Source: a virus. Taken from it: DNA of 39,497 bases. The position numbers and the translations under genes are program-made. Under the pieces are notes generated by a model. That model was not told where the DNA came from, searched no databases, and saw nothing but the letters and a program-made list of their open reading frames with translations. The stretch is from UHGV virus genome UHGV-0087833. One strand, 5' to 3'. Positions 2,175 to 39,460 of the stretch are shown piece after piece (position 1 is the first letter of the stretch; every line of letters starts with the position of its first letter).

Positions 2175-2459
2175 TCAAATAGAGAAATAAATACAAAAAC
2201 AAAAAATGACAGGAACAGCAAAATCCAACAGACTTCCCACATCCCACACGCGTGGATCAAAACCTCCCCACCATGGCATGTTGATACGTTTCCCTTTCCC
2301 AAACTTTTCTATCCAGCGATATTCTGCCTGGGTGTGTTCACGCGCAATGAAGAACGTACAACCGGCTATCGCACCGTAAGCCCAGTTTCCGGTAGAAAGG
2401 CCAACCAGTATCTGCGCAATAACCGCGCATACTGCATGTGTTATTGGTGTTGTATCCAT
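2175..2459 (-). CDS. Small membrane protein directly downstream of tailspike
   Basis: 94 aa from ATG 2459 with AGGA RBS; two hydrophobic segments. Confidence 0.5.
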   Translation of the reverse strand: MDTTPITHAVCAVIAQILVGLSTGNWAYGAIAGCTFFIAREHTQAEYRWIEKFGKGKRINMPWWGGFDPRVWDVGSLLDFAVPVIFCFCIYFSI

Positions 2460-5270: not shown

Positions 5271-5374
5271 GTTAAATCTCCAGATAGTCGCAGCACCCGT
5301 TGCGCCGCATATCTGGTTATTCTATTACCTGAAAAACCACATATGGATAGAAAGACTGTAAATACGAATAGATA

Positions 5375-5389
5375 TTACCTTTCGGGTAA
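5375..5389. promoter_or_regulatory. Operator palindrome TTACC-tttcg-GGTAA (site 1)
   Basis: Perfect 5+5 inverted repeat with 5-bp spacer between divergent tailspike and ant-operon starts. Confidence 0.6.
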
Positions 5390-5426: not shown

Positions 5427-5446
5427 TACTGTATAAATATACAGTT
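5427..5446. promoter_or_regulatory. LexA (SOS) box TACTGTATAAATATACAGTT
   Basis: CTGT-N8-ACAG with AT-rich centre, about 20 bp upstream of the first antirepressor-like gene. Confidence 0.8.
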
Positions 5447-5465: not shown

Positions 5466-5723
5466 ATGCAGCAGTATCACTATCCACTGGAAGACGGATT
5501 TACCGAAAGGATTCACACGCCGGGAGGCGTCAGGTCACTGGTGGAGGGATCGCACTTGATGAAATTACTCCGGGATCTCGATAAGGATGGATTTAATGTC
5601 GATGGCCCACTTGCCGAACTGACTGCACTGATTAACTACGTCACCAGCTCACAGATGTCTATGCGGGATCTGCAAACACATCTCGACTATTGTGCCGAAC
5701 AATTACGAAAACAAACCAGATAA
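5466..5723 (+). CDS. Antirepressor C-terminal-domain paralog (stand-alone)
   Basis: 85 aa; clearly similar to the C-terminal 50 aa of the downstream Ant (LMKLLRDLDKDGFNVDG...DLQTHLDYC vs LMNLLNQLQEDGHDVSG...DIQTHAEYI); GGAGAA RBS. Confidence 0.65.
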   Translation: MQQYHYPLEDGFTERIHTPGGVRSLVEGSHLMKLLRDLDKDGFNVDGPLAELTALINYVTSSQMSMRDLQTHLDYCAEQLRKQTR

Positions 5724-5754: not shown

Positions 5755-5769
5755 TTACCTTTTCGGTAA
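5755..5769. promoter_or_regulatory. Operator palindrome TTACC-ttttc-GGTAA (site 2)
   Basis: Perfect inverted repeat just downstream of the Ant-C paralog stop. Confidence 0.6.
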
Positions 5770-5855
5770 ATTTACATCGCACTCCTCTTGTGCCATAGTA
5801 ATCGGGCACTGGCAAAATCCAGTGCCGGGATTGGCGTCCCGGGTTACTACAGAGG

Positions 5856-5887
5856 CACATATGCCGCATAAGCGGTTTTTTTATGTG
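5856..5887 (+). terminator. Hairpin plus T7 run inside the ant leader (intrinsic terminator/attenuator candidate)
   Basis: CACATA...CCGC-ataa-GCGG-TTTTTTT-ATGTG; upstream hairpins at about 5803-5826 and 5827-5844. Confidence 0.45.
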
Positions 5888-6035
5888 TAAAGCGCACCTA
5901 TTCTATGGTGGGCTGTGTGGGGGCACCGAAAGGTGCGCCGGGTCCTTTGTAGCCGGTTACGCCAACCCTGCACAGTTCACCACCAACCGATTGGCGTCGG
6001 TAGTGGTGATTAACCTAACTACAAAGGTGATCACT

Positions 6036-6722
6036 ATGACTGCTAACGTAACCCCATCTGTTTTTCATTTTGAATCAGAAGCCACCATTCGAGCCATTGT
6101 TATTGATGGAAATCCTTGGTTTGTTGCCAAAGACGTTATTAAAGCTCTTCAACTGACAAACCCCACTATGTCAATAAAATCTCTTGATGATGATGAAAGG
6201 GCTAAATTTAACTTAGGCCGTCAAGGTGAAACCAATATTATCAACGAGTCAGGCCTCTACACACTGATCCTCCGCTGCCGCGACGCAGTGACACCAGGCA
6301 CTATCCCCTACCGCTTTCGTAAATGGGTTACAGGTGAGGTTCTTCCTCAGATCCGCCGCACCGGAAGTTACATTAAAAACTCGCTCCCGCAGGAAGAACG
6401 CATAAAGATAGTTGCCGACCAGGTAGCCAACGCCACAGCATCAGCAGTGATGCAGGCAATGAAGATAGAGAACAAAACCTACAGTGCCCCACTGAAGCCC
6501 GGCTACCGCAGCCTGATTCATTCTCCGTCTGGTGTTCTCGGCCTGACGGAGAACTCACTGCTGATGAATCTGCTGAACCAGTTACAGGAAGACGGGCACG
6601 ACGTATCGGGCGCGGCGGCGGAGCTGACCACCATGTTCTGCTACATTGTTGGTGTGAGCAAATGCCTGCGTGATATCCAGACCCACGCGGAGTACATCAA
6701 CGACAAGGCTGGGTTCTTCTGA
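6036..6722 (+). CDS. ant: Antirepressor Ant (Bro-N domain plus Ant C-terminal domain)
   Basis: Bro-N signature (GNPWFVAKDVIKAL...LDDDE...ESGLYTLIL...FRKWVTGEVLPQIRRTGSY); start at internal ATG 6036 with AAAGG RBS. Confidence 0.85.
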   Translation: MTANVTPSVFHFESEATIRAIVIDGNPWFVAKDVIKALQLTNPTMSIKSLDDDERAKFNLGRQGETNIINESGLYTLILRCRDAVTPGTIPYRFRKWVTGEVLPQIRRTGSYIKNSLPQEERIKIVADQVANATASAVMQAMKIENKTYSAPLKPGYRSLIHSPSGVLGLTENSLLMNLLNQLQEDGHDVSGAAAELTTMFCYIVGVSKCLRDIQTHAEYINDKAGFF

Positions 6723-6794: not shown

Positions 6795-6809
6795 TTACCT
6801 TAAAGGTAA
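6795..6809. promoter_or_regulatory. Operator palindrome TTACC-ttaaa-GGTAA (site 3) overlapping a sigma70-like promoter
   Basis: TTGCAG (6768-6773), 16-bp spacer, TACTAT (6790-6795), then operator and AGGAGG RBS. Confidence 0.6.
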
Positions 6810-6821
6810 AGGAGGCGCGAT

Positions 6822-6989
6822 ATGACAGCGTTGAAAAATCGTACTCAGCACAATGAACAAGCCAAGCAATGCTGGGATGTCATTGGAAAAGTTATGCTTG
6901 GCCGCGCAAGCAAAGAGCGCGACAAGGATATGGTTTACCAGACAGGAACATCTTTCAGCGACTTCAAGGCGGCATTTCGCTCCAAATAG
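6822..6989 (+). CDS. Small hypothetical protein (55 aa), first gene of accessory cassette
   Basis: ATG 6822 eight nt after AGGAGG; in-frame TAG at 6987; below the ORF-track size cut-off. Confidence 0.5.
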   Translation: MTALKNRTQHNEQAKQCWDVIGKVMLGRASKERDKDMVYQTGTSFSDFKAAFRSK

Positions 6990-7009
6990 AAGCACATCAG
7001 GAGTTTTCC

Positions 7010-7450
7010 TTGAAGTTTAACATTAGAATATCTAATAGTTTTCTACATGGGGAAAGCAACACCCCTTTCGCTGTAGACGGACCTTTCCTTACTGATGATG
7101 AAATAAAAATCATACAAAGTTTTTTAGAGGATGTTGCCAATGGAAGGGCGCTTGTTGGAAAAAACAAGCCCTCGTGGGTTGATGATAACCATGATAAAAT
7201 TCCCGGCTCAGACAATTATGAGCAAGAGAATTATTGGCATTATCATTGTGGGCCAACATGGTATCCAAACACATTTAAGAATTATACCATTAACTTAAAT
7301 TTCAACCCTGGCGGAAGGCATTCTAATGAATGCATTCATTATGCAAAAAATGATAATGAAATTGTCATTGTTGGATTTTCAAGAGAACACATACCTTTCC
7401 TTTCATCAGATGGAAACAACAATCCGCTTTTTAATGATGAAGAAGAATAG
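7010..7450 (+). CDS. Hypothetical protein in low-GC island (146 aa, TTG start proposed)
   Basis: Only in-frame start not overlapping upstream ORF is TTG 7010 with AGGAG 6 nt upstream; region visibly AT-rich relative to the rest of the phage; followed by terminator. Confidence 0.5.
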   Translation: MKFNIRISNSFLHGESNTPFAVDGPFLTDDEIKIIQSFLEDVANGRALVGKNKPSWVDDNHDKIPGSDNYEQENYWHYHCGPTWYPNTFKNYTINLNFNPGGRHSNECIHYAKNDNEIVIVGFSREHIPFLSSDGNNNPLFNDEEE

Positions 7451-7471
7451 CCCGCGCTGCGGGCTTTTTTG
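7451..7471 (+). terminator. Rho-independent terminator
   Basis: CCCGC-gct-GCGGG followed by CTTTTTTG immediately after stop. Confidence 0.75.
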
Positions 7472-7542
7472 TGGGCGAAACAAAAGTCAGTGCTACACTC
7501 ATTGACGCCACATTGAGGTGGCTTATAGATGGAAATTTCACA

Positions 7543-7704
7543 ATGAAAAAAGCATTTGCTGCACTGTTCGTTTTGTTGTCTCTGGTAGCTTCAACTCAGG
7601 CCTTTGCCGGTCGTTGTCAGCACGACAGCGACACTGCTGCTGACGGCTCCCGCTGCGGTGGGCGTTCTGCGGATTCCCGCCCGGGTGGCGGTGGCATTCG
7701 TTAA
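7543..7704 (+). CDS. Small secreted peptide (53 aa precursor with signal peptide)
   Basis: MKKAFAALFVLLSLVASTQAFA-GR...: classic n/h/c signal peptide; mature part Gly-rich with 2 Cys. Confidence 0.45.
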   Translation: MKKAFAALFVLLSLVASTQAFAGRCQHDSDTAADGSRCGGRSADSRPGGGGIR

Positions 7705-7726
7705 AAACAAGGCCGCGAAAGCGGCC
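7703..7726 (-). terminator. Rho-independent terminator for the minus-strand lipoprotein transcript
   Basis: GGCCGC-gaaa-GCGGCC hairpin followed on the minus strand by TTGTTTTT. Confidence 0.55.
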
Positions 7727-7727
7727 T

Positions 7728-7739
7728 GTGACATGTCAC
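7728..7739. repeat. Perfect palindrome GTGACATGTCAC (copy 1 of 3)
   Basis: 12-bp perfect palindrome between lipoprotein stop and terminator hairpin. Confidence 0.8.
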
Positions 7740-7742
7740 GAC

Positions 7743-8156
7743 TTATAAAGATGACTGATATTTTACAACTCTGTTCATGGCATCTTTTTTCACCGAGCTG
7801 ATATCAGTTCTTATTTTGGCTTCGTCATTACTGCTTATCATGCTATTAATTTTTTGCACTGACATGCCGTTTCTTTCAGCCATTGCACATACAGCAGCAT
7901 CGTATGAAGAACTCGCTGCGATGGATATCACCTTGTTACACTCAAACACAGCACCTTCAGCAATATCAGATGCCGATGAGGCTGGCTTGGTATAAGTCTT
8001 GACGTAGTGATCAATACAACTATCCTTCGCCGTCTTGGCAAGAGAAAAATCCATTTTAACTTTGTCGCAATATGCCTTATCAACACCGTCATAAACATCA
8101 TAGGATGTCGAGCAAGCGGATATCAAAAATACCGATAACAGCAATAATTCCTTCAT
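7743..8156 (-). CDS. Lipoprotein (low-GC accessory gene)
   Basis: Signal peptide with lipobox LISAC; AAGGA RBS; AT-rich coding sequence. Confidence 0.7.
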   Translation of the reverse strand: MKELLLLSVFLISACSTSYDVYDGVDKAYCDKVKMDFSLAKTAKDSCIDHYVKTYTKPASSASDIAEGAVFECNKVISIAASSSYDAAVCAMAERNGMSVQKINSMISSNDEAKIRTDISSVKKDAMNRVVKYQSSL

Positions 8157-19762: not shown

Positions 19763-20200
19763 TTAGCCGGTTACTTTGGAGCGGATCGGATACGGCGTAT
19801 TTGCATCAACATCCAGGTTAATGCCGGAAGTGAATTTGCCGGCCGTTAGTGGGCCAGTTGCGACGGAGTAGTTAACACGCAGATATCGCTGAACACCGGC
19901 AGGCACCTTTGCAGAAACAACTCGTTTACCTGCTGTCAGGGTAGCCTTTGCCAGTGCGCCACTATCATAAATAGTGGACCATGAGCTGTTATTCTCACTC
20001 GTCTGCAACTGGATGTTTACAGTTGCCTCACCACTTGCCGTGGCGGCTTCGTTAACCAGCGCCCAAAACTCAAGCGGGTAACCCACGCCGATATCGCGAC
20101 GATTTCCATCAATTGGACCGAGATCGATTACGTCAGTAGAAGCCGCGGTATCAGTTACCGCCTGTGCTTCGGAGAACATCAACAGTTTGTCGGTGATCAT
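19763..20200 (-). CDS. Hypothetical capsid-associated protein (decoration-like)
   Basis: 145 aa immediately downstream of major capsid gene. Confidence 0.4.
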   Translation of the reverse strand: MITDKLLMFSEAQAVTDTAASTDVIDLGPIDGNRRDIGVGYPLEFWALVNEAATASGEATVNIQLQTSENNSSWSTIYDSGALAKATLTAGKRVVSAKVPAGVQRYLRVNYSVATGPLTAGKFTSGINLDVDANTPYPIRSKVTG

Positions 20201-24144: not shown

Positions 24145-24234
24145 ATCAATGACTCCGTACGCAATTAAATCATTACCAATTTAACCACATATGATTTATT
24201 TATCGTAGAATGTTGACATTTAACGCGTGAATTA

Positions 24235-24249
24235 TTACCTTTCAGGTAA
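24235..24249. promoter_or_regulatory. Operator palindrome TTACC-tttca-GGTAA (site 4) next to TTGACA
   Basis: Perfect inverted repeat; TTGACA at 24213-24218. Confidence 0.55.
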
Positions 24250-24571: not shown

Positions 24572-24648
24572 GTGGCATTAGCTCAGTCGGACAGAGCAAC
24601 CGCCTTCTAAGCGGTTGGTCGCAGGTTCGAATCCTGCATGCCACGCCA
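24572..24648 (+). tRNA. tRNA-Arg (anticodon UCU, reads AGA)
   Basis: 7-bp acceptor stem GTGGCAT/ATGCCAC, T-loop GGTTCGAATCC, anticodon loop CTTCTAA, encoded CCA. Confidence 0.9.
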
Positions 24649-24846
24649 GAATCACGCCTAAGGACCGTGATGCCAGAAGTTCCAGGGGCTTGGCGGTGAT
24701 GGTTTCCCTTGAAGGACTATCACCGCCCTTTTTACAGCAGGACGCCATTGCGATGACTTCATGCTGTAAACCCGTACAGCCACGGAAGGCATAACTCATT
24801 GCTTCCAGTTCGCCCGGTTCGCCGGGCATTTTTTTAAGGTGAGATT

Positions 24847-26784: not shown

Positions 26785-27377
26785 TGATTGCCATCCTGAC
26801 GTTCTTTCAGTCTCTTCCTGGCTGCCGCTATGCGATCAGCAATTGTCACATTCACATTAACATCCAGGCGTTCTTTGAACGCGTTGACATCAACATGCTT
26901 ACCAATCAGCTCAAGGTTCTTCACCTTGTCAGGCCATTTAATTTTTTTGAGGATTGTCTCTATCGAATCCTCGTTCATGTTCATGATGGTCGATGACAGA
27001 TCAAAGCCGCTAAGCGTAGTGCGCCAGATTTTCGGCCACTCACGGATTGGTTTAAGGCTCCCATCGTCGTTGAGGATGTCGATCACGTCCATCTGGTCGA
27101 TCTCCACCAGGCGCATGAGAACGTAATCAGCACTGACGCGCATTCGTTTGTTGCGCTCCTCCATCAACTCGGCAATCCGTTTTTGAATGCGTTCATCGCG
27201 CATCATGACACTAGCTTTAACTGCCGCTGTATTTGGAGAGAATCCTGCGTTAATCGCTGCCTGAGTCTGATTTTCAGGCGTTTTGATGTATGACTGGCAA
27301 TAAGCCTCCTGCATTGCTGTTAGTGGCTTAAATTGCGTTGATTTGCGTTTATAGGTTTTAGGTTCAGCAGGCATCAT
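26781..27377 (-). CDS. Terminase small subunit
   Basis: N-terminal LTAMQEAYCQSYIKTPENQTQAAINAGFSP motif; start at ATG 27377 (GGTGG RBS). Confidence 0.8.
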   Translation of the reverse strand: MMPAEPKTYKRKSTQFKPLTAMQEAYCQSYIKTPENQTQAAINAGFSPNTAAVKASVMMRDERIQKRIAELMEERNKRMRVSADYVLMRLVEIDQMDVIDILNDDGSLKPIREWPKIWRTTLSGFDLSSTIMNMNEDSIETILKKIKWPDKVKNLELIGKHVDVNAFKERLDVNVNVTIADRIAAARKRLKERQDGNQ

Positions 27378-27384
27378 AACCACC

Positions 27385-27416
27385 GTGGTAATAGTTACCG
27401 TTGTGGTAATAGTACC
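27385..27416. repeat. Tandem repeat GTGGTAATAGT(T)ACC x2 just upstream of terS
   Basis: Two near-identical 14-15-bp copies, each an internal GGTAA-tag-TTACC palindrome. Confidence 0.6.
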
Positions 27417-27420
27417 ATGC

Positions 27421-27446
27421 AAAATAAAGCCGCCATAGTTGGCGGC
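27421..27446 (-). terminator. Rho-independent terminator upstream of terS on the late-operon strand
   Basis: GCCGCCA-acta-TGGCGGC followed on the minus strand by TTTATTTT. Confidence 0.6.
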
Positions 27447-27487
27447 AGTATTCAAAACCCATCAAATTCATCATGCATAATCTACTC

Positions 27488-30698: not shown

Positions 30699-31043
30699 TC
30701 AGAACTCTTCGATTTTCCAGCCACCACCTGCTTTCTTTGGCTTAACCGTTACCCCGATGATTCGGAACGGATACTGATCTGCGGCGACTTTGGTTTTCAC
30801 CCTGGCGTCGTCGGTCCAGAAACCTTTCACTTCGTGCAGTTCCATCTCGCCGGTGGCGAGCATCACAGCGAAATCTGGCGTATAGAACGTGTTGTCAGCT
30901 AACCGCAGCTTGATACCCTCGAATCGATACCAGGCTATTTCCCCTGCACGTTTACGCTGCTCAAGGTGCTGGCAATACGCAGATTCTGTTTTGTTCATCT
31001 GGCCTGTTTTGAGTCGACCAAGAGCCTGTATCTGTTTTCTCAT
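30699..31043 (-). CDS. DUF1064-like putative nuclease
   Basis: 114 aa downstream of replication genes; family from memory. Confidence 0.45.
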   Translation of the reverse strand: MRKQIQALGRLKTGQMNKTESAYCQHLEQRKRAGEIAWYRFEGIKLRLADNTFYTPDFAVMLATGEMELHEVKGFWTDDARVKTKVAADQYPFRIIGVTVKPKKAGGGWKIEEF

Positions 31044-31046
31044 GAT

Positions 31047-31061
31047 TTACCTCTGAGGTAA
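31047..31061. promoter_or_regulatory. Operator palindrome TTACC-tctga-GGTAA (site 5), 3 bp from the start codon
   Basis: On the coding strand reads TTACCTCAGAGGTAAATCATG; right half coincides with the SD-like GAGGT. Confidence 0.55.
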
Positions 31062-31108
31062 TTAAAAACCACATAAGACACGAAATCAATAGAGTTTAGA
31101 ATATTTTA

Positions 31109-31123
31109 TTACCTAACAGGTAA
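31109..31123. promoter_or_regulatory. Operator palindrome TTACC-taaca-GGTAA (site 6)
   Basis: Perfect inverted repeat in the 117-bp gap between P-like and DUF1064-like genes. Confidence 0.55.
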
Positions 31124-31961: not shown

Positions 31962-32758
31962 GCTTCAGGGCTGTTCCAGTGCGGAACGTTGTTATCAGGT
32001 AATGTTGATTGCTTCTGTCTGCTAATCTGCAGCCGCCTTGCCAGCTTCTGCTCCCACTGTGCCTGATGGTATGCCTTACCCTCAGCCATCCAGTAAATTC
32101 TGAACTCTGCAAGTTCCTGTGCCGTTGGCAGACTGTCCAGGTAGATCCCCTGCAATGAGCTTTTCCGAAGAAAGTCATCTGATGGCTGCCATTGTTCATG
32201 CATGACAAATTTGCCTAATTGCCCTGGCCCACCAGGAGGAACAAAGTTATTCATCACGGCGTTGTTTGCGCTGGGGTCATGATGCACAGAATCCCCGTTT
32301 TTTGTCCTGCTCTCCCTCTCTTGGTTAAATGACTGGTTATATGACTGGTTCTGGATCCCGTTTTTGGGATCATTCAACATCCCGTTTTTGGGATCATTCA
32401 ACATCCCGTTTTTGGGTATATTCCCGTTTTCGGTAACATTACCGTTTTCGGGTTCATTGCCCCCCTCCCGGTTGCCTTTAATGTTCCCGTTTTTGGTTAT
32501 ATTAAGAGAGAAAACCCGCACTCTTTTCGTCGCTCCCTTTCTCTCTCCGGTATCTGAAATAAGCCCCATTTTCATGAGCGATATAAGCCCGGCCTGTACG
32601 GTTTTTTTATTCAGGCAAGTGTCTTTAACGAGGCGTTCTATGCTGGGATAGCAGAGGTTATATTCATCGGCTCTGTCAGCCATCGAAAGCAGTATGAGCT
32701 TTAATGACGAGCTACCTGGATCTGTCTCCCAGGCCCAATCTGTTGCATGTCTGCTCAT
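31943..32758 (-). CDS. Replication initiator, O-like (N-terminal winged-helix, internal iteron-encoded repeats)
   Basis: Repetitive peptide (NGN.. / KNGMLNDP x2) encoded by DNA iterons; upstream of P-like gene. Confidence 0.7.
   Translation of the reverse strand: MSRHATDWAWETDPGSSSLKLILLSMADRADEYNLCYPSIERLVKDTCLNKKTVQAGLISLMKMGLISDTGERKGATKRVRVFSLNITKNGNIKGNREGGNEPENGNVTENGNIPKNGMLNDPKNGMLNDPKNGIQNQSYNQSFNQERESRTKNGDSVHHDPSANNAVMNNFVPPGGPGQLGKFVMHEQWQPSDDFLRKSSLQGIYLDSLPTAQELAEFRIYWMAEGKAYHQAQWEQKLARRLQISRQKQSTLPDNNVPHWNSPEAWEDFL
32355..32503. repeat. Replication origin iterons (about 6-7 copies of ATCCCGTTTTTGGGATCATTCAAC-like unit)
   Basis: Two perfect 24-bp copies then degenerate copies; GATCCC-N6-GGGATC internal symmetry; inside O-like gene. 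Confidence 0.7.
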
Positions 32759-33054: not shown

Positions 33055-33069
33055 TTACCTTTGAGGTGC
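33055..33069. promoter_or_regulatory. Imperfect operator TTACC-tttga-GGTGC (site 7)
   Basis: One half-site degenerate; between Cro-like gene and next early gene. Confidence 0.4.
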
Positions 33070-33124: not shown

Positions 33125-33355
33125 TCATGAGTAGAAGAAGTATGCCAGTTCTGCTTTTGAGCGCAGCCATTGTCTTGATTTACAGGCTTTAAAAAGCCCA
33201 TTCATCAATACCTTACCTGGCATTTTGCGCTTACCTGTTAAGTGAGTCTGGATATAGTGACTCGTCGTTCCGGCTTCCTGTGCGAAGGCTTCACGCTCAT
33301 CCGGAGTAAGTGCAAGCCAGTGCTTTTTGAAATCGAAATGTCCGTTATCGCTCAT
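33125..33355 (-). CDS. Cro-like HTH protein, first gene of rightward lytic operon
   Basis: 76 aa; HTH-like AFAQEAGTTSHYIQTHL; divergent from repressor across the operator cluster. Confidence 0.55.
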   Translation of the reverse strand: MSDNGHFDFKKHWLALTPDEREAFAQEAGTTSHYIQTHLTGKRKMPGKVLMNGLFKACKSRQWLRSKAELAYFFYS

Positions 33356-33391: not shown

Positions 33392-33406
33392 TCACCTATA
33401 AGGTAA
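33392..33406. promoter_or_regulatory. Operator TCACC-tataa-GGTAA (site 8, OR-like cluster)
   Basis: Near-perfect palindrome in the divergent intergenic region. Confidence 0.55.
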
Positions 33407-33422
33407 CAAAAATCAAGGATAG

Positions 33423-33437
33423 TTACCCATGAGGTGC
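33423..33437. promoter_or_regulatory. Operator TTACC-catga-GGTGC (site 9, OR-like cluster)
   Basis: Imperfect palindrome 17 bp from site 10. Confidence 0.5.
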
Positions 33438-33439
33438 AT

Positions 33440-33454
33440 TTACCTGTTGGGTAA
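33440..33454. promoter_or_regulatory. Operator TTACC-tgttg-GGTAA (site 10, OR-like cluster)
   Basis: Perfect palindrome about 55 bp upstream of the repressor start. Confidence 0.6.
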
Positions 33455-33509
33455 TATTGCTTTAAATTGAATCATCTTCTGATTCAGATATGAGGCGATT
33501 TTCCAGAAA

Positions 33510-34094
33510 ATGAAAAGTATCCAGGACGTCCGCAGGCAAAATCTCAACGACTTGATCGACCGTGAATTCAATGGTGTTCAGACGCGGATGGCTGAAAAAC
33601 TTGGAACTCAGGCAAATCTGGTAAACCGCTGGGCTCTTGGCAAGAAGGTTATCGGCGACCAGGTTGCGCGAAAAATTGAAGCTGCCGCCAATAAACCCCG
33701 TAACTGGCTTGATATCGATCGCTCGCTTTCTCAGGAAGGTTTTCAGCCTGTCGGACCAAGCGACATTGGTCAACTGGCGGCTCACAACCTGGAACGCTGG
33801 ATGAGCGAAAGCCGCGACCTTTCAACGCAGGGAAAACTTCACCGCGCATCCGGCGTCGCCCAGGTAACAATCAGCCGCCTGTTAAACAATGAGGTCAGCG
33901 TTTCCATTTCCACCCTGGAGAATGTTGCATCCGCATTTGGGCGTCACGGATATGAATTACTGATTCACCCGCACGACCCCGCGACTATCAACTATGACCG
34001 CTCGCGCTACGCATTGTTACCTGAAACAGAGAAGGCAAAGATCGAAAGTTACATTGAATTTGTCATCAACCAGAACGAAAAAAATAAACAATAA
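33510..34094 (+). CDS. Prophage repressor candidate, tandem HTH_XRE domains, no S24 peptidase domain
   Basis: Two HTH-like segments (QTRMAEKLGTQANLVNRW and HRASGVAQVTISRLL); no Ser/Lys autocleavage module; position equals lambda cI. Confidence 0.6.
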   Translation: MKSIQDVRRQNLNDLIDREFNGVQTRMAEKLGTQANLVNRWALGKKVIGDQVARKIEAAANKPRNWLDIDRSLSQEGFQPVGPSDIGQLAAHNLERWMSESRDLSTQGKLHRASGVAQVTISRLLNNEVSVSISTLENVASAFGRHGYELLIHPHDPATINYDRSRYALLPETEKAKIESYIEFVINQNEKNKQ

Positions 34095-34116
34095 AATCAT
34101 ATTTTTCAGTAAGTAA

Positions 34117-34138
34117 GCCGCCTTCTGGCGGCTTTTTT
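34117..34138 (+). terminator. Rho-independent terminator after the repressor gene
   Basis: GCCGCC-ttct-GGCGGC followed by TTTTTT. Confidence 0.8.
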
Positions 34139-34151
34139 ATTGCTTATTTGA

Positions 34152-34166
34152 TTACCTAACGGGTAA
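34152..34166. promoter_or_regulatory. Operator TTACC-taacg-GGTAA (site 11, OL-like)
   Basis: Perfect palindrome upstream of TTGACA at 34186-34191. Confidence 0.6.
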
Positions 34167-34213
34167 TTTTTTTAACTCATATCTATTGACATCAAACCAA
34201 ATACGCATAATCA

Positions 34214-34228
34214 TTACCTCAACGGTAA
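34214..34228. promoter_or_regulatory. Operator TTACC-tcaac-GGTAA (site 12, OL-like) at the leftward-operon promoter
   Basis: Perfect palindrome downstream of TTGACA; extra GGTAA half-site at 34237. Confidence 0.6.
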
Positions 34229-34402: not shown

Positions 34403-34702
34403 ATGAACGTTAATCAGCAGAAAAATCTTCAAAAAATCATGCTGGCATTCGACAAGGACTACCGCCTGTCAGAACAGCTATATGACCGACAAGTTGAACT
34501 GATTGAGAGCATCCGACTTCATCAACTGTCCTCAACTTTCGACGTTGTAACAGGCAAAGGCGTTCGTCAGGAAGTACTGGAGGCTGCTAAAGACAGCCCT
34601 GAGTTCGAAGAACTGATGGATGCCTATCGGCGAGAGGCAATGGCAATTATCGCCCGCTGGGATCTGGCGGATCAGCTTGATGGACAGAGGGACGCGGCAT
34701 GA
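34403..34702 (+). CDS. Hypothetical protein upstream of exonuclease
   Basis: 99 aa from ATG 34403 (GGAGGG RBS); stop overlaps exonuclease start (ATGA). Confidence 0.5.
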   Translation: MNVNQQKNLQKIMLAFDKDYRLSEQLYDRQVELIESIRLHQLSSTFDVVTGKGVRQEVLEAAKDSPEFEELMDAYRREAMAIIARWDLADQLDGQRDAA

Positions 34703-35520
34703 AACCGGGAATTTATTTCGACATCAGCAACGAAGACTACCACGCCGGTGACGGCGTGAGTAAGTCGCAACTGGACATGGTTGCCAAGAATCCGGCGCTT
34801 CTTAAATGGGTTCAGGCAGCACCAGAAGACGAAGAGAAAAAGTCTGCACTGGATATGGGAACCGCATTGCACTGTCTGCTTCTGGAGCCTGGAGAGTTCG
34901 ACAAACGCTTCATTGTTTCACCGAAATTCGATCGTCGGACGAAACAAGGTAAAGCTGACGAAGAGGCATTTCTTCGTGATGTGGCGGATATGGGGATTAC
35001 GGTACTTGATGCCGAGCAGTGGCGGAAACTGGAGCTGATGCGTGATAGCGCAATGGCTCATCCGGCGGCACGCTGGATGTTGGAAGCACCTGGTTACTGC
35101 GAAGCATCAATGTACTGGAACGATGAAGAGACGGGTGAGTTGTGCCGAATTCGTCCAGACAAATGGCTGAACGAGCACAACGTGATCGTCGACGTGAAAA
35201 AGGTTGCAGATATGGACCGTTTTGCACGCCACATCGAGGAATTCCGCTACCACGTGCAGGACGCAATGTACCGCGAAGGCGCAATGAGGGTTACTGGTCA
35301 GCCGCATGGTTTTTTCTTTCTTGCCGTGAGCGAAAGCATTGATTGTGGTCGCTATCCGGTACGCGTGTTCGAGCTGGATGCGCAGGATGTCGATGCCGGG
35401 CACGCTCTGTTCCGCCGGGATCTGAATACCTATCACGAATGCCGCATCAATGATGAATGGGGCGGTGTGGAAATCATTAAACGCCATGAGTGGGCACGCA
35501 AACAGGATATGTACATATGA
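34699..35520 (+). CDS. PD-(D/E)XK-type recombination exonuclease (partner of RecT)
   Basis: 273 aa, translationally coupled to RecT-like gene; family from motif recall. Confidence 0.65.
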   Translation: MKPGIYFDISNEDYHAGDGVSKSQLDMVAKNPALLKWVQAAPEDEEKKSALDMGTALHCLLLEPGEFDKRFIVSPKFDRRTKQGKADEEAFLRDVADMGITVLDAEQWRKLELMRDSAMAHPAARWMLEAPGYCEASMYWNDEETGELCRIRPDKWLNEHNVIVDVKKVADMDRFARHIEEFRYHVQDAMYREGAMRVTGQPHGFFFLAVSESIDCGRYPVRVFELDAQDVDAGHALFRRDLNTYHECRINDEWGGVEIIKRHEWARKQDMYI

Positions 35521-36458
35521 GCAACGACATCGTAAACATCAACGCACCAGTAGACACAGCAATCGCTGGAACTGCTGCAACTATTTTCAGCCCAGACGGC
35601 TTGAACCAACTGATGAAATTCGCCGAGGTAATGGCGCAAAGCCGCGTAACGGTACCGGCGCACCTCGCCGGGAAACCAGCTGATTGCATGGCCGTGGCAA
35701 TGCAGGCTGCGCAGTGGGGAATGAACCCGTTTGCCGTGGCTCAGAAAACCCATGTTGTGAACGGCACGCTAGGTTATGAAGCCCAATTAGTAAACGCAGT
35801 TATCTCAACGATGTCGCCAACAAAAGATCGCATCAACTACGAGTGGTTCGGGCCGTGGGAACGCGTGATCGGTAAGTTTGTTGAGAAAACATCCAAAAAC
35901 GGCAATCCATATATCGCACCAGGCTGGACTCTAAAAGACGAAGAAGGCTGCGGTGTTCGCGTATGGGCAACCATGAAGGGCGAGGATCAACCTCGAGTGC
36001 TTGAGTTAATGCTGTCTCAAGCACAGGTAAGAAACTCCACACTTTGGGCCAGTGATCCGAAACAACAACTCGCATACCTTGCGACAAAACGCTGGTCTCG
36101 CTTGCACTGTCCTGACGTAATCATGGGCGTCTACACACCAGACGAATTACAGGAAACGGCACCGCGCGTTGAGCGAGACATTACTCCGCAAACGACCACT
36201 GCTGCGGGAATGAACAGTCTGATCAACGCTAAACCAGTGAAAAAGCCTGATGAGCAAACGCGTAAAGCGGATAGCCGTGATCCAGAAGAAATGCTGATGG
36301 CCTTTACCAGCGCAGCGATGAATTACAGCACTGTCTCCGAACTGGATAAGGCTTACAAATACATTGCACAAAAACTTTCAGATGATGACGAACTGCTGGC
36401 AAAAGCCACCGACGTTTACAGCGTTCGTCGGGAAGAATTAAACGAAACATCTATGTAA
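35517..36458 (+). CDS. recT: RecT-family single-strand annealing protein
   Basis: 313 aa from ATG 35517 (ATGA overlap with exonuclease stop). Confidence 0.7.
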   Translation: MSNDIVNINAPVDTAIAGTAATIFSPDGLNQLMKFAEVMAQSRVTVPAHLAGKPADCMAVAMQAAQWGMNPFAVAQKTHVVNGTLGYEAQLVNAVISTMSPTKDRINYEWFGPWERVIGKFVEKTSKNGNPYIAPGWTLKDEEGCGVRVWATMKGEDQPRVLELMLSQAQVRNSTLWASDPKQQLAYLATKRWSRLHCPDVIMGVYTPDELQETAPRVERDITPQTTTAAGMNSLINAKPVKKPDEQTRKADSRDPEEMLMAFTSAAMNYSTVSELDKAYKYIAQKLSDDDELLAKATDVYSVRREELNETSM

Positions 36459-39295: not shown

Positions 39296-39310
39296 ATACC
39301 TTTAAGGTAA
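39296..39310. promoter_or_regulatory. Operator-like ATACC-tttaa-GGTAA (site 13) upstream of int, nested in a larger palindrome
   Basis: About 45 bp upstream of int start; flanked by GACGGTAT (39282-39289) and ATACCGTC (39310-39317). Confidence 0.45.
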
Positions 39311-39397: not shown

Positions 39398-39443
39398 TTG
39401 AGTTGGCATCTGAATAGGAATGATTTGCTATGAGTTAGCTGTT

Positions 39444-39460
39444 AATCATTCCCACTCAAT
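39444..39460. repeat. att core, right copy (AATCATTCCCACTCAAT), overlaps guaA stop codon
   Basis: Exact 17-bp match to 38-54; lies next to integrase gene. Confidence 0.8.

What the first reader, a model, noticed from the sequence alone, without database searches (positions are those of the whole stretch)
33392..34228. One 15-bp palindrome (TTACC-N5-GGTAA) recurs at 13 intergenic sites across the prophage
I found 10 perfect and 3 one-half-degenerate copies of TTACC-N5-GGTAA (often extended to TATTACC...GGTAAT), all intergenic: three in tandem between the divergent Cro-like and repressor genes (33392-33454), two flanking a TTGACA promoter at the head of the recombination operon (34152-34228), and others at 5375, 5755, 6795, 24235, 31047, 31109, 33055 and 39296 (upstream of int). 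A perfect 5+5 palindrome with fixed spacer is expected about 0.04 times by chance in 39.5 kb. The simplest reading is a single dimeric repressor that directly controls not only the immunity region but also int, the antirepressor, the accessory cassette and the tRNA unit. Degenerate half-sites read CACC/GGTG, echoing the lambda TATCACC half-site.
Basis: seen in the sequence. Interest (0 to 1): 0.8.

Follow-up and report, generated by a model that had tools for sequence, protein, structure and literature searches.

The report
Repressor operator sites of a phiV10-like prophage
The repeated 15-bp palindrome is real and is most likely the binding site of this phiV10/epsilon15-type prophage's repressor, placed in front of most of its gene blocks. 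The same sites are already annotated as repressor-binding sites in phage epsilon15, so this is a sound but largely known feature.

Summary
TTACC-N5-GGTAA occurs 10 times perfectly in the window (0.01 expected). All ten lie in the 7.9% of sequence that is non-coding, and none occurs in 100 kb of E. coli K-12. Five degenerate copies are supported by position.

The window is a prophage about 98% identical to phage phiV10 (genus Uetakevirus). The same palindrome sits at equivalent places in phiV10, epsilon15, SPC32H, Tyrion, a Klebsiella phage and six enterobacterial prophages. The epsilon15 GenBank record already labels seven such sites "protein_bind: repressor".

The 194-aa repressor is a full-length homologue of SPC32H Rep (PDB 5D50). 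Papers citing the structural work describe Rep as a tetramer that is inactivated by a small antirepressor, not cleaved. That antirepressor, with a LexA box, is also present here. The recognition helix NLVNRW is invariant wherever the motif occurs. Distant homologues with other helices lack the motif.

So the operator reading holds, but "dimeric", "tRNA unit" and the lambda echo do not.

Possibly new details: operator pairs 61–63 bp apart (nearly always 62) bracket two promoters in all 12 genomes and loci examined, and one operator abuts an isrK/C4-RNA antirepressor module. Binding was not tested here.

The parts
33440..33454 (.). Operator in the rep-cro intergenic region, rep-proximal, perfect. 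Its left half could serve as the -35 of a rep promoter (TTACCT-17-TAAATT; inferred).
   Evidence: half-sites invariant in the five-genome alignment A6
33423..33437 (.). Middle operator of the rep-cro region. Two mismatches, both in one half (GGTGC). It lies 17 bp from 33440.
   Evidence: the equivalent site is perfect in epsilon15, SPC32H and BUCT711 with the same 17-bp spacing
33392..33406 (.). Cro-proximal operator, one mismatch (TCACC). It lies between the -35 and -10 of the predicted cro promoter.
   Evidence: promoter TTGTTA-17-TATTAT on the - strand at 33409-33381; this site is imperfect in all five genomes
34152..34166 (.). Distal operator of the leftward-type early promoter, upstream of the -35.
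   Evidence: invariant half-sites in alignment A4
34214..34228 (.). Proximal operator of the same promoter. It starts at the last base of the -10, 62 bp from the distal operator.
34186..34214 (+). Predicted sigma-70 promoter TTGACA-17-AATCAT for the recombination operon.
   Evidence: CTATTGAC invariant in alignment A4
31109..31123 (.). Distal operator after the terminator that ends the replication genes.
31047..31061 (.). Proximal operator, 62 bp from 31109. Its spacer carries the ribosome-binding site (GAGG) of the gene starting at 31043.
   Evidence: invariant half-sites in alignment A5
33055..33069 (.). Degenerate operator (two mismatches) after the cro terminator, ahead of the p42-DnaT-P replication genes.
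   Evidence: one-mismatch counterparts at the same place in phiV10, Tyrion and BUCT711
27395..27409 (.).
   Evidence: annotated as a repressor-binding site at the same place in epsilon15 (12-27)
27377..27391 (.). One-mismatch operator 18 bp from 27395, overlapping the terS ribosome-binding site and start codon.
   Evidence: the same 18-bp pair occurs in phiV10, epsilon15 and Tyrion
24235..24249 (.). Perfect operator 91 bp upstream of the first head-operon gene (start 24144, - strand).
   Evidence: annotated repressor site in epsilon15 (2931-2947); kept in genomes without the tRNA
5375..5389 (.). Perfect operator in the divergent region between the tailspike gene (- strand) and the small antirepressor gene (+ strand).
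   Evidence: annotated repressor site in epsilon15 (19895-19911); invariant in alignment A7
5755..5769 (.). Perfect operator abutting the -35 of the predicted promoter of the isrK / C4-RNA / Bro-N antirepressor module.
   Evidence: syntenic in phiV10, Tyrion and BUCT711
6795..6809 (.). Perfect operator 13 bp before the start of a small accessory gene (6822-6989). No counterpart was seen at this position in the five phage genomes scanned in full.
39296..39310 (.). One-mismatch operator (GGTAT) 43 bp upstream of int. The mismatch creates a possible -10, TATACT.
   Evidence: the same one-mismatch site occurs in all relatives, but the whole att-int region is conserved, so this is weak evidence
33510..34094 (+). 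Repressor (Rep), 194 aa.
   Evidence: PDB 5D50 chain A, E 4e-42 over residues 1-190; 100% identical to the repressor of phages phiV10 and ZX5
33125..33355 (-). Cro-like protein, 76 aa, probable second reader of the operators.
   Evidence: phrog_35 'transcriptional repressor', E 9e-13; conserved helix-turn-helix AGTTSHYIQTHLT
5466..5723 (+). Small antirepressor (Ant), 85 aa.
   Evidence: PDB 5D50 chain E, E 1.4e-46; 86% identical to SPC32H Ant
5429..5444 (.). LexA box CTGTATAAATATACAG, 22 bp before the ant start codon.
   Evidence: conserved in alignment A7

Best explanation
The palindrome (consensus ATTACC-N5-GGTAAT) is the operator recognised by the N-terminal helix-turn-helix domains of the prophage repressor Rep (33510-34094). 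It is probably also recognised by the divergently encoded Cro-like protein.

One half-site pair spans one helical turn, as expected for a pair of HTH domains. By homology with SPC32H Rep, the protein is a tetramer carrying two such DNA-binding pairs.

Operators sit on or next to promoters, or between a terminator and the next gene. They occur at almost every transcription unit:
- the rep/cro switch (three sites);
- the early recombination operon (two sites, 62 bp apart, bracketing TTGACA-17-AATCAT);
- the replication genes;
- the block after the replication genes (two sites, 62 bp apart);
- terS and terL;
- the head operon;
- the tailspike/ant region;
- the isrK-C4-Bro-N module;
- an accessory gene;
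- int.

In a lysogen, Rep would therefore silence the units directly rather than only through a cascade. Induction does not work by repressor cleavage. DNA damage removes LexA from the ant promoter, and Ant then takes Rep tetramers off the DNA.

What is shown here: the motif statistics, the positions, conservation across 12 genomes and loci, the protein homologies, and the match between motif and recognition helix.

What is inferred: physical binding, the regulatory effect of each dispersed site, and bridging of paired sites by one tetramer.
For: Statistics: 10 perfect sites against 0.01 expected. All are non-coding. None occurs in 100 kb of host DNA. It is the only over-represented 5+5 palindrome.

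Prior annotation: epsilon15 record AY150271.2 marks the same palindrome at seven equivalent places as protein_bind 'repressor / lysogeny'.

Synteny: the same positions recur in phiV10, epsilon15, SPC32H, Tyrion and BUCT711 and in six enterobacterial prophage loci.

Footprints: the half-sites and the -35 are invariant while the surrounding intergenic DNA diverges.

Protein: Rep matches SPC32H Rep. The helix N36-L-V-N-R-W41 is invariant although overall identity falls to 43%. Five distant homologues with other helices carry no copy of the motif.

Repressor role: a repressor 100% identical to this one, overexpressed in phage ZX5, abolished free phage and cut endolysin and holin transcripts by more than 99.9% (PMC9782041).

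Induction route: Ant and its LexA box are present.

Oligomer state: Rep is described as a tetramer binding palindromic sites in PMC9638917 and PMC9986798.
Against: No binding data exist for this phage, and I could not read the primary papers (Kropinski 2007; Kim and Ryu 2013; Kim et al. 2016).

Rep and the Cro-like protein are both conserved, so sequence alone cannot say which one reads a given site.

The consensus promoter scan found no sigma-70 promoter at the head-operon, terS or int sites. The effect of Rep there is therefore unproven.

The int site lies in a region that is conserved as a whole.

The window has no operator ahead of its lysis genes, unlike epsilon15. "Every unit" is therefore an overstatement for this prophage.
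Confidence: 0.85

Rival explanations
1. Only the sites in the immunity region (rep-cro and the early promoter) are working operators. The dispersed single sites are weak or silent decoys with no effect on transcription.
For: No consensus promoter was found at the head-operon, terS or int sites. Site 6795 was not seen in the other phages scanned in full. Site 33055 has decayed by one more mismatch than in phiV10.
Against: The single sites keep their positions across phages of four host genera, although their repressors are only 43-78% identical to this one and the flanking DNA differs. All of them are non-coding.
Confidence: 0.12
2. The palindrome is mainly the site of the Cro-like protein or another phage regulator, not of Rep.
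For: The Cro-like protein has an equally conserved helix-turn-helix and matches a transcriptional-repressor family.
Against: In switches of this type, both proteins usually read the same operators. The epsilon15 annotators assigned the sites to the repressor. Motif presence tracks the Rep recognition helix.
Confidence: 0.08
3. The sites act as RNA hairpins, for example attenuators or masks of ribosome-binding sites, rather than as DNA sites.
For: Several sites lie in short leaders and contain or abut the ribosome-binding site. The predicted hairpins have energies of -3.5 to -6.3 kcal/mol.
Against: The stems are short and A/U-rich and are not followed by U-runs. The stem letters never vary and show no compensatory changes, while the loop varies freely. 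That pattern fits a protein-read DNA site. Some sites lie upstream of promoters, where they would not be transcribed from those promoters.
Confidence: 0.03
4. A host DNA-binding protein recognises the motif.
For: None found.
Against: The motif has 0 copies in 100 kb of E. coli K-12. It travels with the phage repressor across host genera.
Confidence: 0.02

Closest known systems
Repressor-binding sites annotated in Salmonella phage epsilon15 (GenBank AY150271.2)
   Same: Same palindrome (ATTACC-N5-GGTAAT) at equivalent positions: before terS, before the head operon, in the ant/tailspike region, at the early promoter, and after the replication genes.
   Different: The repressors are only 43% identical overall. 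The epsilon15 record marks 7 sites and omits the rep-cro triplet and others that my scan finds there (11 perfect sites). This prophage adds sites at 5755 and 6795 and lacks the site before the lysis genes.
Rep-Ant switch of Salmonella phage SPC32H (PDB 5D50, 5D4Z)
   Same: Full-length Rep homologue, an Ant that is 86% identical, and a LexA box before ant. The same operators and spacings occur in the SPC32H genome.
   Different: Rep is 43% identical. The tetramer-interface residue Phe187 of SPC32H is Tyr here, and Phe190 is kept (PMC9986798). I could not read the primary papers, so I do not know which operators were tested there.
Phage P1 C1 repressor with operators dispersed over the genome, and its immI region (c4 RNA, ant). 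From my own knowledge; not checked here.
   Same: One repressor with many scattered operators. An antirepressor module carrying a C4-type antisense RNA sits behind a repressor-controlled promoter (for the C4 RNA).
   Different: P1 operators are asymmetric 17-bp sites, and C1 was not shown here to be related to Rep. Here the sites are palindromes.
Mycobacteriophage L5/L1 repressor with multiple asymmetric sites ('stoperators')
   Same: Many repressor sites across the genome, including the late regions (PMC1934351 abstract, for multiple asymmetric operators).
   Different: Those sites are asymmetric and act in one orientation inside transcription units. Here the sites are symmetric and sit at the heads of units.
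Lambda CI/Cro switch
   Same: Divergent repressor and cro genes with three operators between them, plus a second operator set at the leftward early promoter.
   Different: Rep has no detectable autocleavage domain. Induction is by an antirepressor. The operators also extend to late and accessory units. The supposed echo of the lambda half-site is not supported.

Membership tests
Uetakevirus (epsilon15 / SPC32H) Rep-Ant immunity system | Repressor homologous over its full length to SPC32H Rep (N-terminal DNA-binding domain, middle dimerisation domain, C-terminal tetramerisation domain) | tested here: met
   PDB 5D50_A, E 4e-42, residues 1-190 aligned
Uetakevirus (epsilon15 / SPC32H) Rep-Ant immunity system | Small antirepressor homologous to SPC32H Ant, with a LexA box at its promoter | tested here: met
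   PDB 5D50_E, E 1.4e-46; CTGTATAAATATACAG at 5429-5444
Uetakevirus (epsilon15 / SPC32H) Rep-Ant immunity system | Palindrome ATTACC-N5-GGTAAT at the positions annotated as repressor-binding sites in epsilon15 | tested here: met
Uetakevirus (epsilon15 / SPC32H) Rep-Ant immunity system | Rep physically binds these sites as a tetramer | not testable with these tools
   Inferred only. The tetramer-interface positions are conserved (Tyr181 and Phe184 here against Phe187 and Phe190 in SPC32H).
Lambda-type CI repressor | Three operators between divergent repressor and cro genes | tested here: met
   33392, 33423, 33440
Lambda-type CI repressor | C-terminal S24 peptidase domain for RecA-stimulated self-cleavage | tested here: not met
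   Pfam finds only helix-turn-helix families in Rep.
Stoperator-type repression (mycobacteriophage L5) | Asymmetric sites inside transcription units, acting in one orientation | tested here: not met
   The sites are symmetric. In the window, spacer position 6 is T in 12 of 15 sites, but epsilon15 does not share this bias. The sites lie at the heads of units.
P1 immI-type antirepressor module | C4 antisense RNA upstream of an antirepressor gene | tested here: met
   Rfam C4 (79.5 bits) at 5901-5987 and isrK (74.7 bits) at 5806-5882, before the Bro-N/Ant gene at 6036-6722. This concerns a neighbouring module, not the palindrome itself.

The most novel reading that the evidence does not exclude
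The repressor tetramer uses its two DNA-binding pairs to clamp promoters between operators held a fixed 62 bp apart (about six helical turns). It may also link the scattered single operators. One protein would then switch off nearly all transcription units directly, without a late-gene cascade. In addition, the whole genus, across E. coli, Salmonella, Klebsiella and Enterobacter phages, would share a single immunity specificity, because both the recognition helix and the operator are invariant.
Probability: 0.3. Interest if true: 0.5.

Novelty: already known. Interest (0 to 1): 0.28.

Why it matters
The finding gives a coherent regulatory map of a common E. coli prophage type: one operator sequence, about 15 sites, and an induction route through LexA and an antirepressor.

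The basic facts are already in the epsilon15 annotation and in the SPC32H structural work. The value added here is threefold:
- the near-fixed spacing (61–63 bp, nearly always 62) of operator pairs around two promoters, in all 12 genomes and loci examined;
- the invariance of operator and recognition helix across the genus;
- a repressor site at an RNA-controlled second antirepressor module.

A 2023 paper states that how SPC32H Rep represses has not been extensively characterised (PMC9986798). These sites would be natural substrates for that work.

Tried and rejected
Papers I could not read. The epsilon15 genome paper, the phiV10 paper and both SPC32H papers are not held in the library. Text searches for the motif and for operator descriptions in this phage group found nothing relevant.

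Ideas rejected:
- Asymmetry of the site. T at spacer position 6 is frequent in the window but not in epsilon15, so I dropped it.
- Terminator or RNA-structure reading. The hairpins are weak and the stems show no covariation.
- Host-factor reading. There are no copies in 100 kb of K-12.
- Control of the tRNA.
- The one-mismatch site at 1816. It is inside a gene and absent from the relatives, so it is probably chance.

Limit of one test. The genome scan for Rep relatives used the recognition helix itself as one of its search patterns. It therefore cannot count as an unbiased covariation test. Only the five distant hits found through the N-terminal pattern are informative.

Unresolved side lead. 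The shared word AAACCAAAT near two early operators is not more frequent than chance.

Full report
WHAT THE WINDOW IS

The 2.8 kb around the finding is 98.4% identical to Escherichia phage phiV10, genus Uetakevirus, the epsilon15-like podoviruses. Nearly all phiV10 genes map onto the window in reverse order. The attachment core attgagtgggaatgatt, reported for phiV10, epsilon15 and ZX5 at the 3' end of guaA (PMC9782041), lies at about 39441-39457. The window is therefore essentially one integrated prophage.

THE OBSERVATION

TTACC-N5-GGTAA occurs 10 times perfectly. Dinucleotide-preserving shuffles give a mean of 0.01. With one mismatch or fewer there are 14 sites against 0.62 expected.

The perfect sites are 5375, 5755, 6795, 24235, 27395, 31047, 31109, 33440, 34152 and 34214. 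The one-mismatch sites are 33392, 39296, 27377 and 1816. Site 1816 is inside a gene, is absent from the relatives, and is probably chance. Two-mismatch matches are frequent in the window (28), so those two rest on position only.

It omits the perfect site at 27395 and its neighbour at 27377. These two lie after a terminator (27446-27429) and just before an in-frame ATG at 27377. That ATG gives a 198-aa terS, the length annotated in epsilon15, so they too are non-coding.

With a gene list built from the phiV10 mapping, 7.9% of the window is non-coding, and all ten perfect sites fall there (P about 1e-11). No other 5+5 palindrome at any spacer from 0 to 12 exceeds three copies, apart from nested versions of these same sites. 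The motif has no copy in two 50-kb pieces of E. coli K-12.

THE SAME SITES IN RELATIVES, AND PRIOR ANNOTATION

The epsilon15 GenBank record carries seven protein_bind features labelled "repressor / lysogeny". Their sequences are this palindrome: ATTACCTAAAAGGTAAT, ATTACCTGTAAGGTAAT and so on. They lie before terS, before the first head gene, between gp19 (the Ant homologue) and the tailspike gene, at the early promoter next to the repressor gene, and after the replication genes. Window sites 27395, 24235, 5375, 34152/34214 and 31109 occupy the same places.

Scans of phiV10, epsilon15 and SPC32H, Enterobacter phage Tyrion and Klebsiella phage BUCT711 give 8 to 11 perfect copies each, at syntenic positions. 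Six enterobacterial prophage loci found with the repressor show the same pattern around the repressor gene. They come from Superficieibacter, Erwinia, Klebsiella, Scandinavium and two Citrobacter species.

In alignments of four intergenic regions, the half-sites and the -35 hexamers are invariant. Overall column identity is 56-78%.

THE PROTEINS

The 194-aa product of 33510-34094 aligns over residues 1-190 with the repressor of Salmonella phage SPC32H (PDB 5D50, E 4e-42). Pfam sees only helix-turn-helix families and no self-cleavage domain.

Papers citing the 2016 structural study describe SPC32H Rep as follows. It binds palindromic DNA as a tetramer. The DNA-binding pairs are formed by domains from different dimers. 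A tetrameric antirepressor, Ant, disassembles it (PMC9638917). A 2023 paper adds that its C-terminal domain resembles the p53 tetramerisation domain, that the two pairs of middle domains lie about 100 Å apart, and that its repression mechanism "has not been extensively characterized" (PMC9986798).

Across five phages, the N-terminal segment N36-L-V-N-R-W41 is invariant, although overall identity drops to 43%. Five distant homologues of the N-terminal domain have other sequences at that helix and carry no copy of the palindrome in about 6 kb each. They come from Hydrogenovibrio, Thiomicrospira and Paraburkholderia. The motif therefore tracks the helix. The test is limited because the search patterns included the helix itself.

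A repressor 100% identical to this one is encoded by phage ZX5. When overexpressed there, it abolished free phage and cut endolysin and holin transcripts by more than 99.9% (PMC9782041).

The divergent 76-aa gene (33125-33355) matches a transcriptional-repressor family and has a conserved helix-turn-helix. It is the likely Cro analogue and probably reads the same sites.

The 85-aa gene at 5466-5723 is 86% identical to SPC32H Ant. It is preceded by a LexA box at 5429-5444.

ANATOMY OF THE SITES

- The rep-cro region has three sites, with spacings of 31 and 17 bp. The cro-proximal site lies inside the predicted cro promoter and is imperfect in all five genomes.
- The early promoter TTGACA-17-AATCAT (34186-34214) is bracketed. 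One operator begins at the last base of the -10. The other lies 62 bp away, upstream of the -35.
- The same plan recurs after the replication genes, read on the - strand. The order is a terminator, a distal operator, an invariant TATTGA that I read as a -35, and then a proximal operator 62 bp on. The spacer of the proximal operator contains the ribosome-binding site of the next gene.
- Every such pair I could measure is 61-63 bp apart, almost always 62, across 12 genomes and loci.
- Single sites follow the cro terminator (33055), precede terS (27395/27377) and precede the head operon (24235).
- Further single sites lie in the tailspike/ant region (5375), 13 bp before a small accessory gene (6795), and 43 bp before int (39296).
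- Site 5755 abuts the -35 of a predicted promoter (5771-5799). Its expected start coincides with an Rfam isrK RNA (5806-5882). A C4 antisense RNA (5901-5987) and a Bro-N antirepressor gene follow.
- This prophage has no operator before its lysis genes, where epsilon15 has one.

MECHANISM

The most likely reading (confidence 0.85) is that these are Rep operators, and probably Cro operators as well. In the lysogen, Rep directly blocks most transcription units. It acts by promoter occlusion at the three promoters that are recognisable. At the others it may act by occlusion or as a roadblock.

Induction runs through LexA, then Ant, then removal of Rep tetramers from DNA, not through cleavage.

Binding, the effect at each dispersed site, and bridging of the 62-bp pairs by one tetramer are all inferences.

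RIVALS

- An RNA-hairpin role is unlikely. Energies are -3.5 to -6.3 kcal/mol. The stem letters are invariant with no compensatory changes, while the loops vary.
- A host factor is unlikely.
- Some dispersed sites may be silent. The consensus scan found no sigma-70 promoter at the head-operon, terS or int sites.

The operator idea and the broad regulon are supported. The following are not:
- "Dimeric" conflicts with what is reported for the homologue.
- The antirepressor with a characterised homologue is the small LexA-controlled gene, not the Bro-N gene.
- Site 24235 is not about the tRNA, because epsilon15 and Tyrion keep the site without a tRNA.
- The lambda comparison has no support.

NOVELTY

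The motif, its assignment to the repressor and its dispersed placement are already recorded for epsilon15. The repressor family has solved structures. I therefore rate the finding as already known, with modest interest.

Three details may be new, but I could not check them against the closed-access primary papers:
- the near-invariant spacing (61–63 bp, almost always 62) of paired operators;
- the genus-wide invariance of operator and recognition helix;
- the operator at the isrK/C4 antirepressor module.

Noticed in passing
window 5806-5987 (+), with gene 6036-6722: Rfam finds an isrK RNA (5806-5882, 74.7 bits) and a C4 antisense RNA (5901-5987, 79.5 bits) directly upstream of a Bro-N/Ant-type antirepressor gene. 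This resembles the P1 immI and Gifsy isrK modules. It means the prophage carries two different antirepressor systems.
   Followed up: partly
window 5335-5344, 24183-24192, 31067-31076 (all on the - strand): A second conserved word, ATATGTGGTT (TTATGTGGTT at the third site), is followed after 5 bp by GGTAA or TTACC. It occurs exactly three times per genome, at the same three places in the window, phiV10, epsilon15 and SPC32H: upstream of the tailspike gene, the head operon and the gene after the replication block. It lies 50-62 bp from a full operator. It may be a middle or late promoter element, or the site of another regulator. Unexplained.
   Followed up: partly
window 5429-5444 and 5466-5723: A LexA box lies 22 bp before an 85-aa gene that is 86% identical to the SPC32H antirepressor. 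Induction is therefore probably by antirepression rather than by repressor cleavage.
   Followed up: yes
window 27377-27455: The phiV10-style terS start (TTG at 27455) runs through a terminator and two operators. The in-frame ATG at 27377 gives the 198-aa length annotated in epsilon15 and is the more likely start.
   Followed up: partly
window 24572-24648 (+) and 24578-24829 (-): A tRNA-Arg(TCT) gene overlaps the ORF that corresponds to phiV10 gene p04, which is therefore probably not a real gene. The tRNA is present in phiV10, SPC32H and BUCT711 but absent from epsilon15 and Tyrion.
   Followed up: partly
window 32322-32458: An array of repeats lies inside the DnaT-like replication gene. It contains a perfect 24-bp unit (2.6 copies) holding the small palindrome ATCCCGTTTTTGGGAT, followed by degenerate 18-bp units. 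It looks like origin iterons, as in the lambda O gene.
   Followed up: partly
window 34699-36458: phiV10 annotates one fused recET gene (1761 bp). The window has two overlapping ORFs instead (34699-35520 and 35490-36458), as in epsilon15, where the exonuclease and RecT are separate genes.
   Followed up: no
L014 2659-3001 (Paraburkholderia contig): A distant repressor with a different recognition helix and a long C-terminal extension (the ORF runs about 240 aa from the conserved MKSI start; not scanned against Pfam) is paired with a divergent homologue of the Cro-like protein. Their intergenic region contains a different repeat (TACAAC / GTTGTA). This hints that operator and helix change together. 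It is a single case.
   Followed up: no
window 2230-2459 and 6822-8156: This prophage lacks the O-acetyltransferase gene that phiV10 has, and its tailspike is similar to phiV10's only at the N-terminus. It carries several small genes of unknown function instead (phrog_1443, 8607, 5954, 8691). None matches a known defence system.
   Followed up: partly
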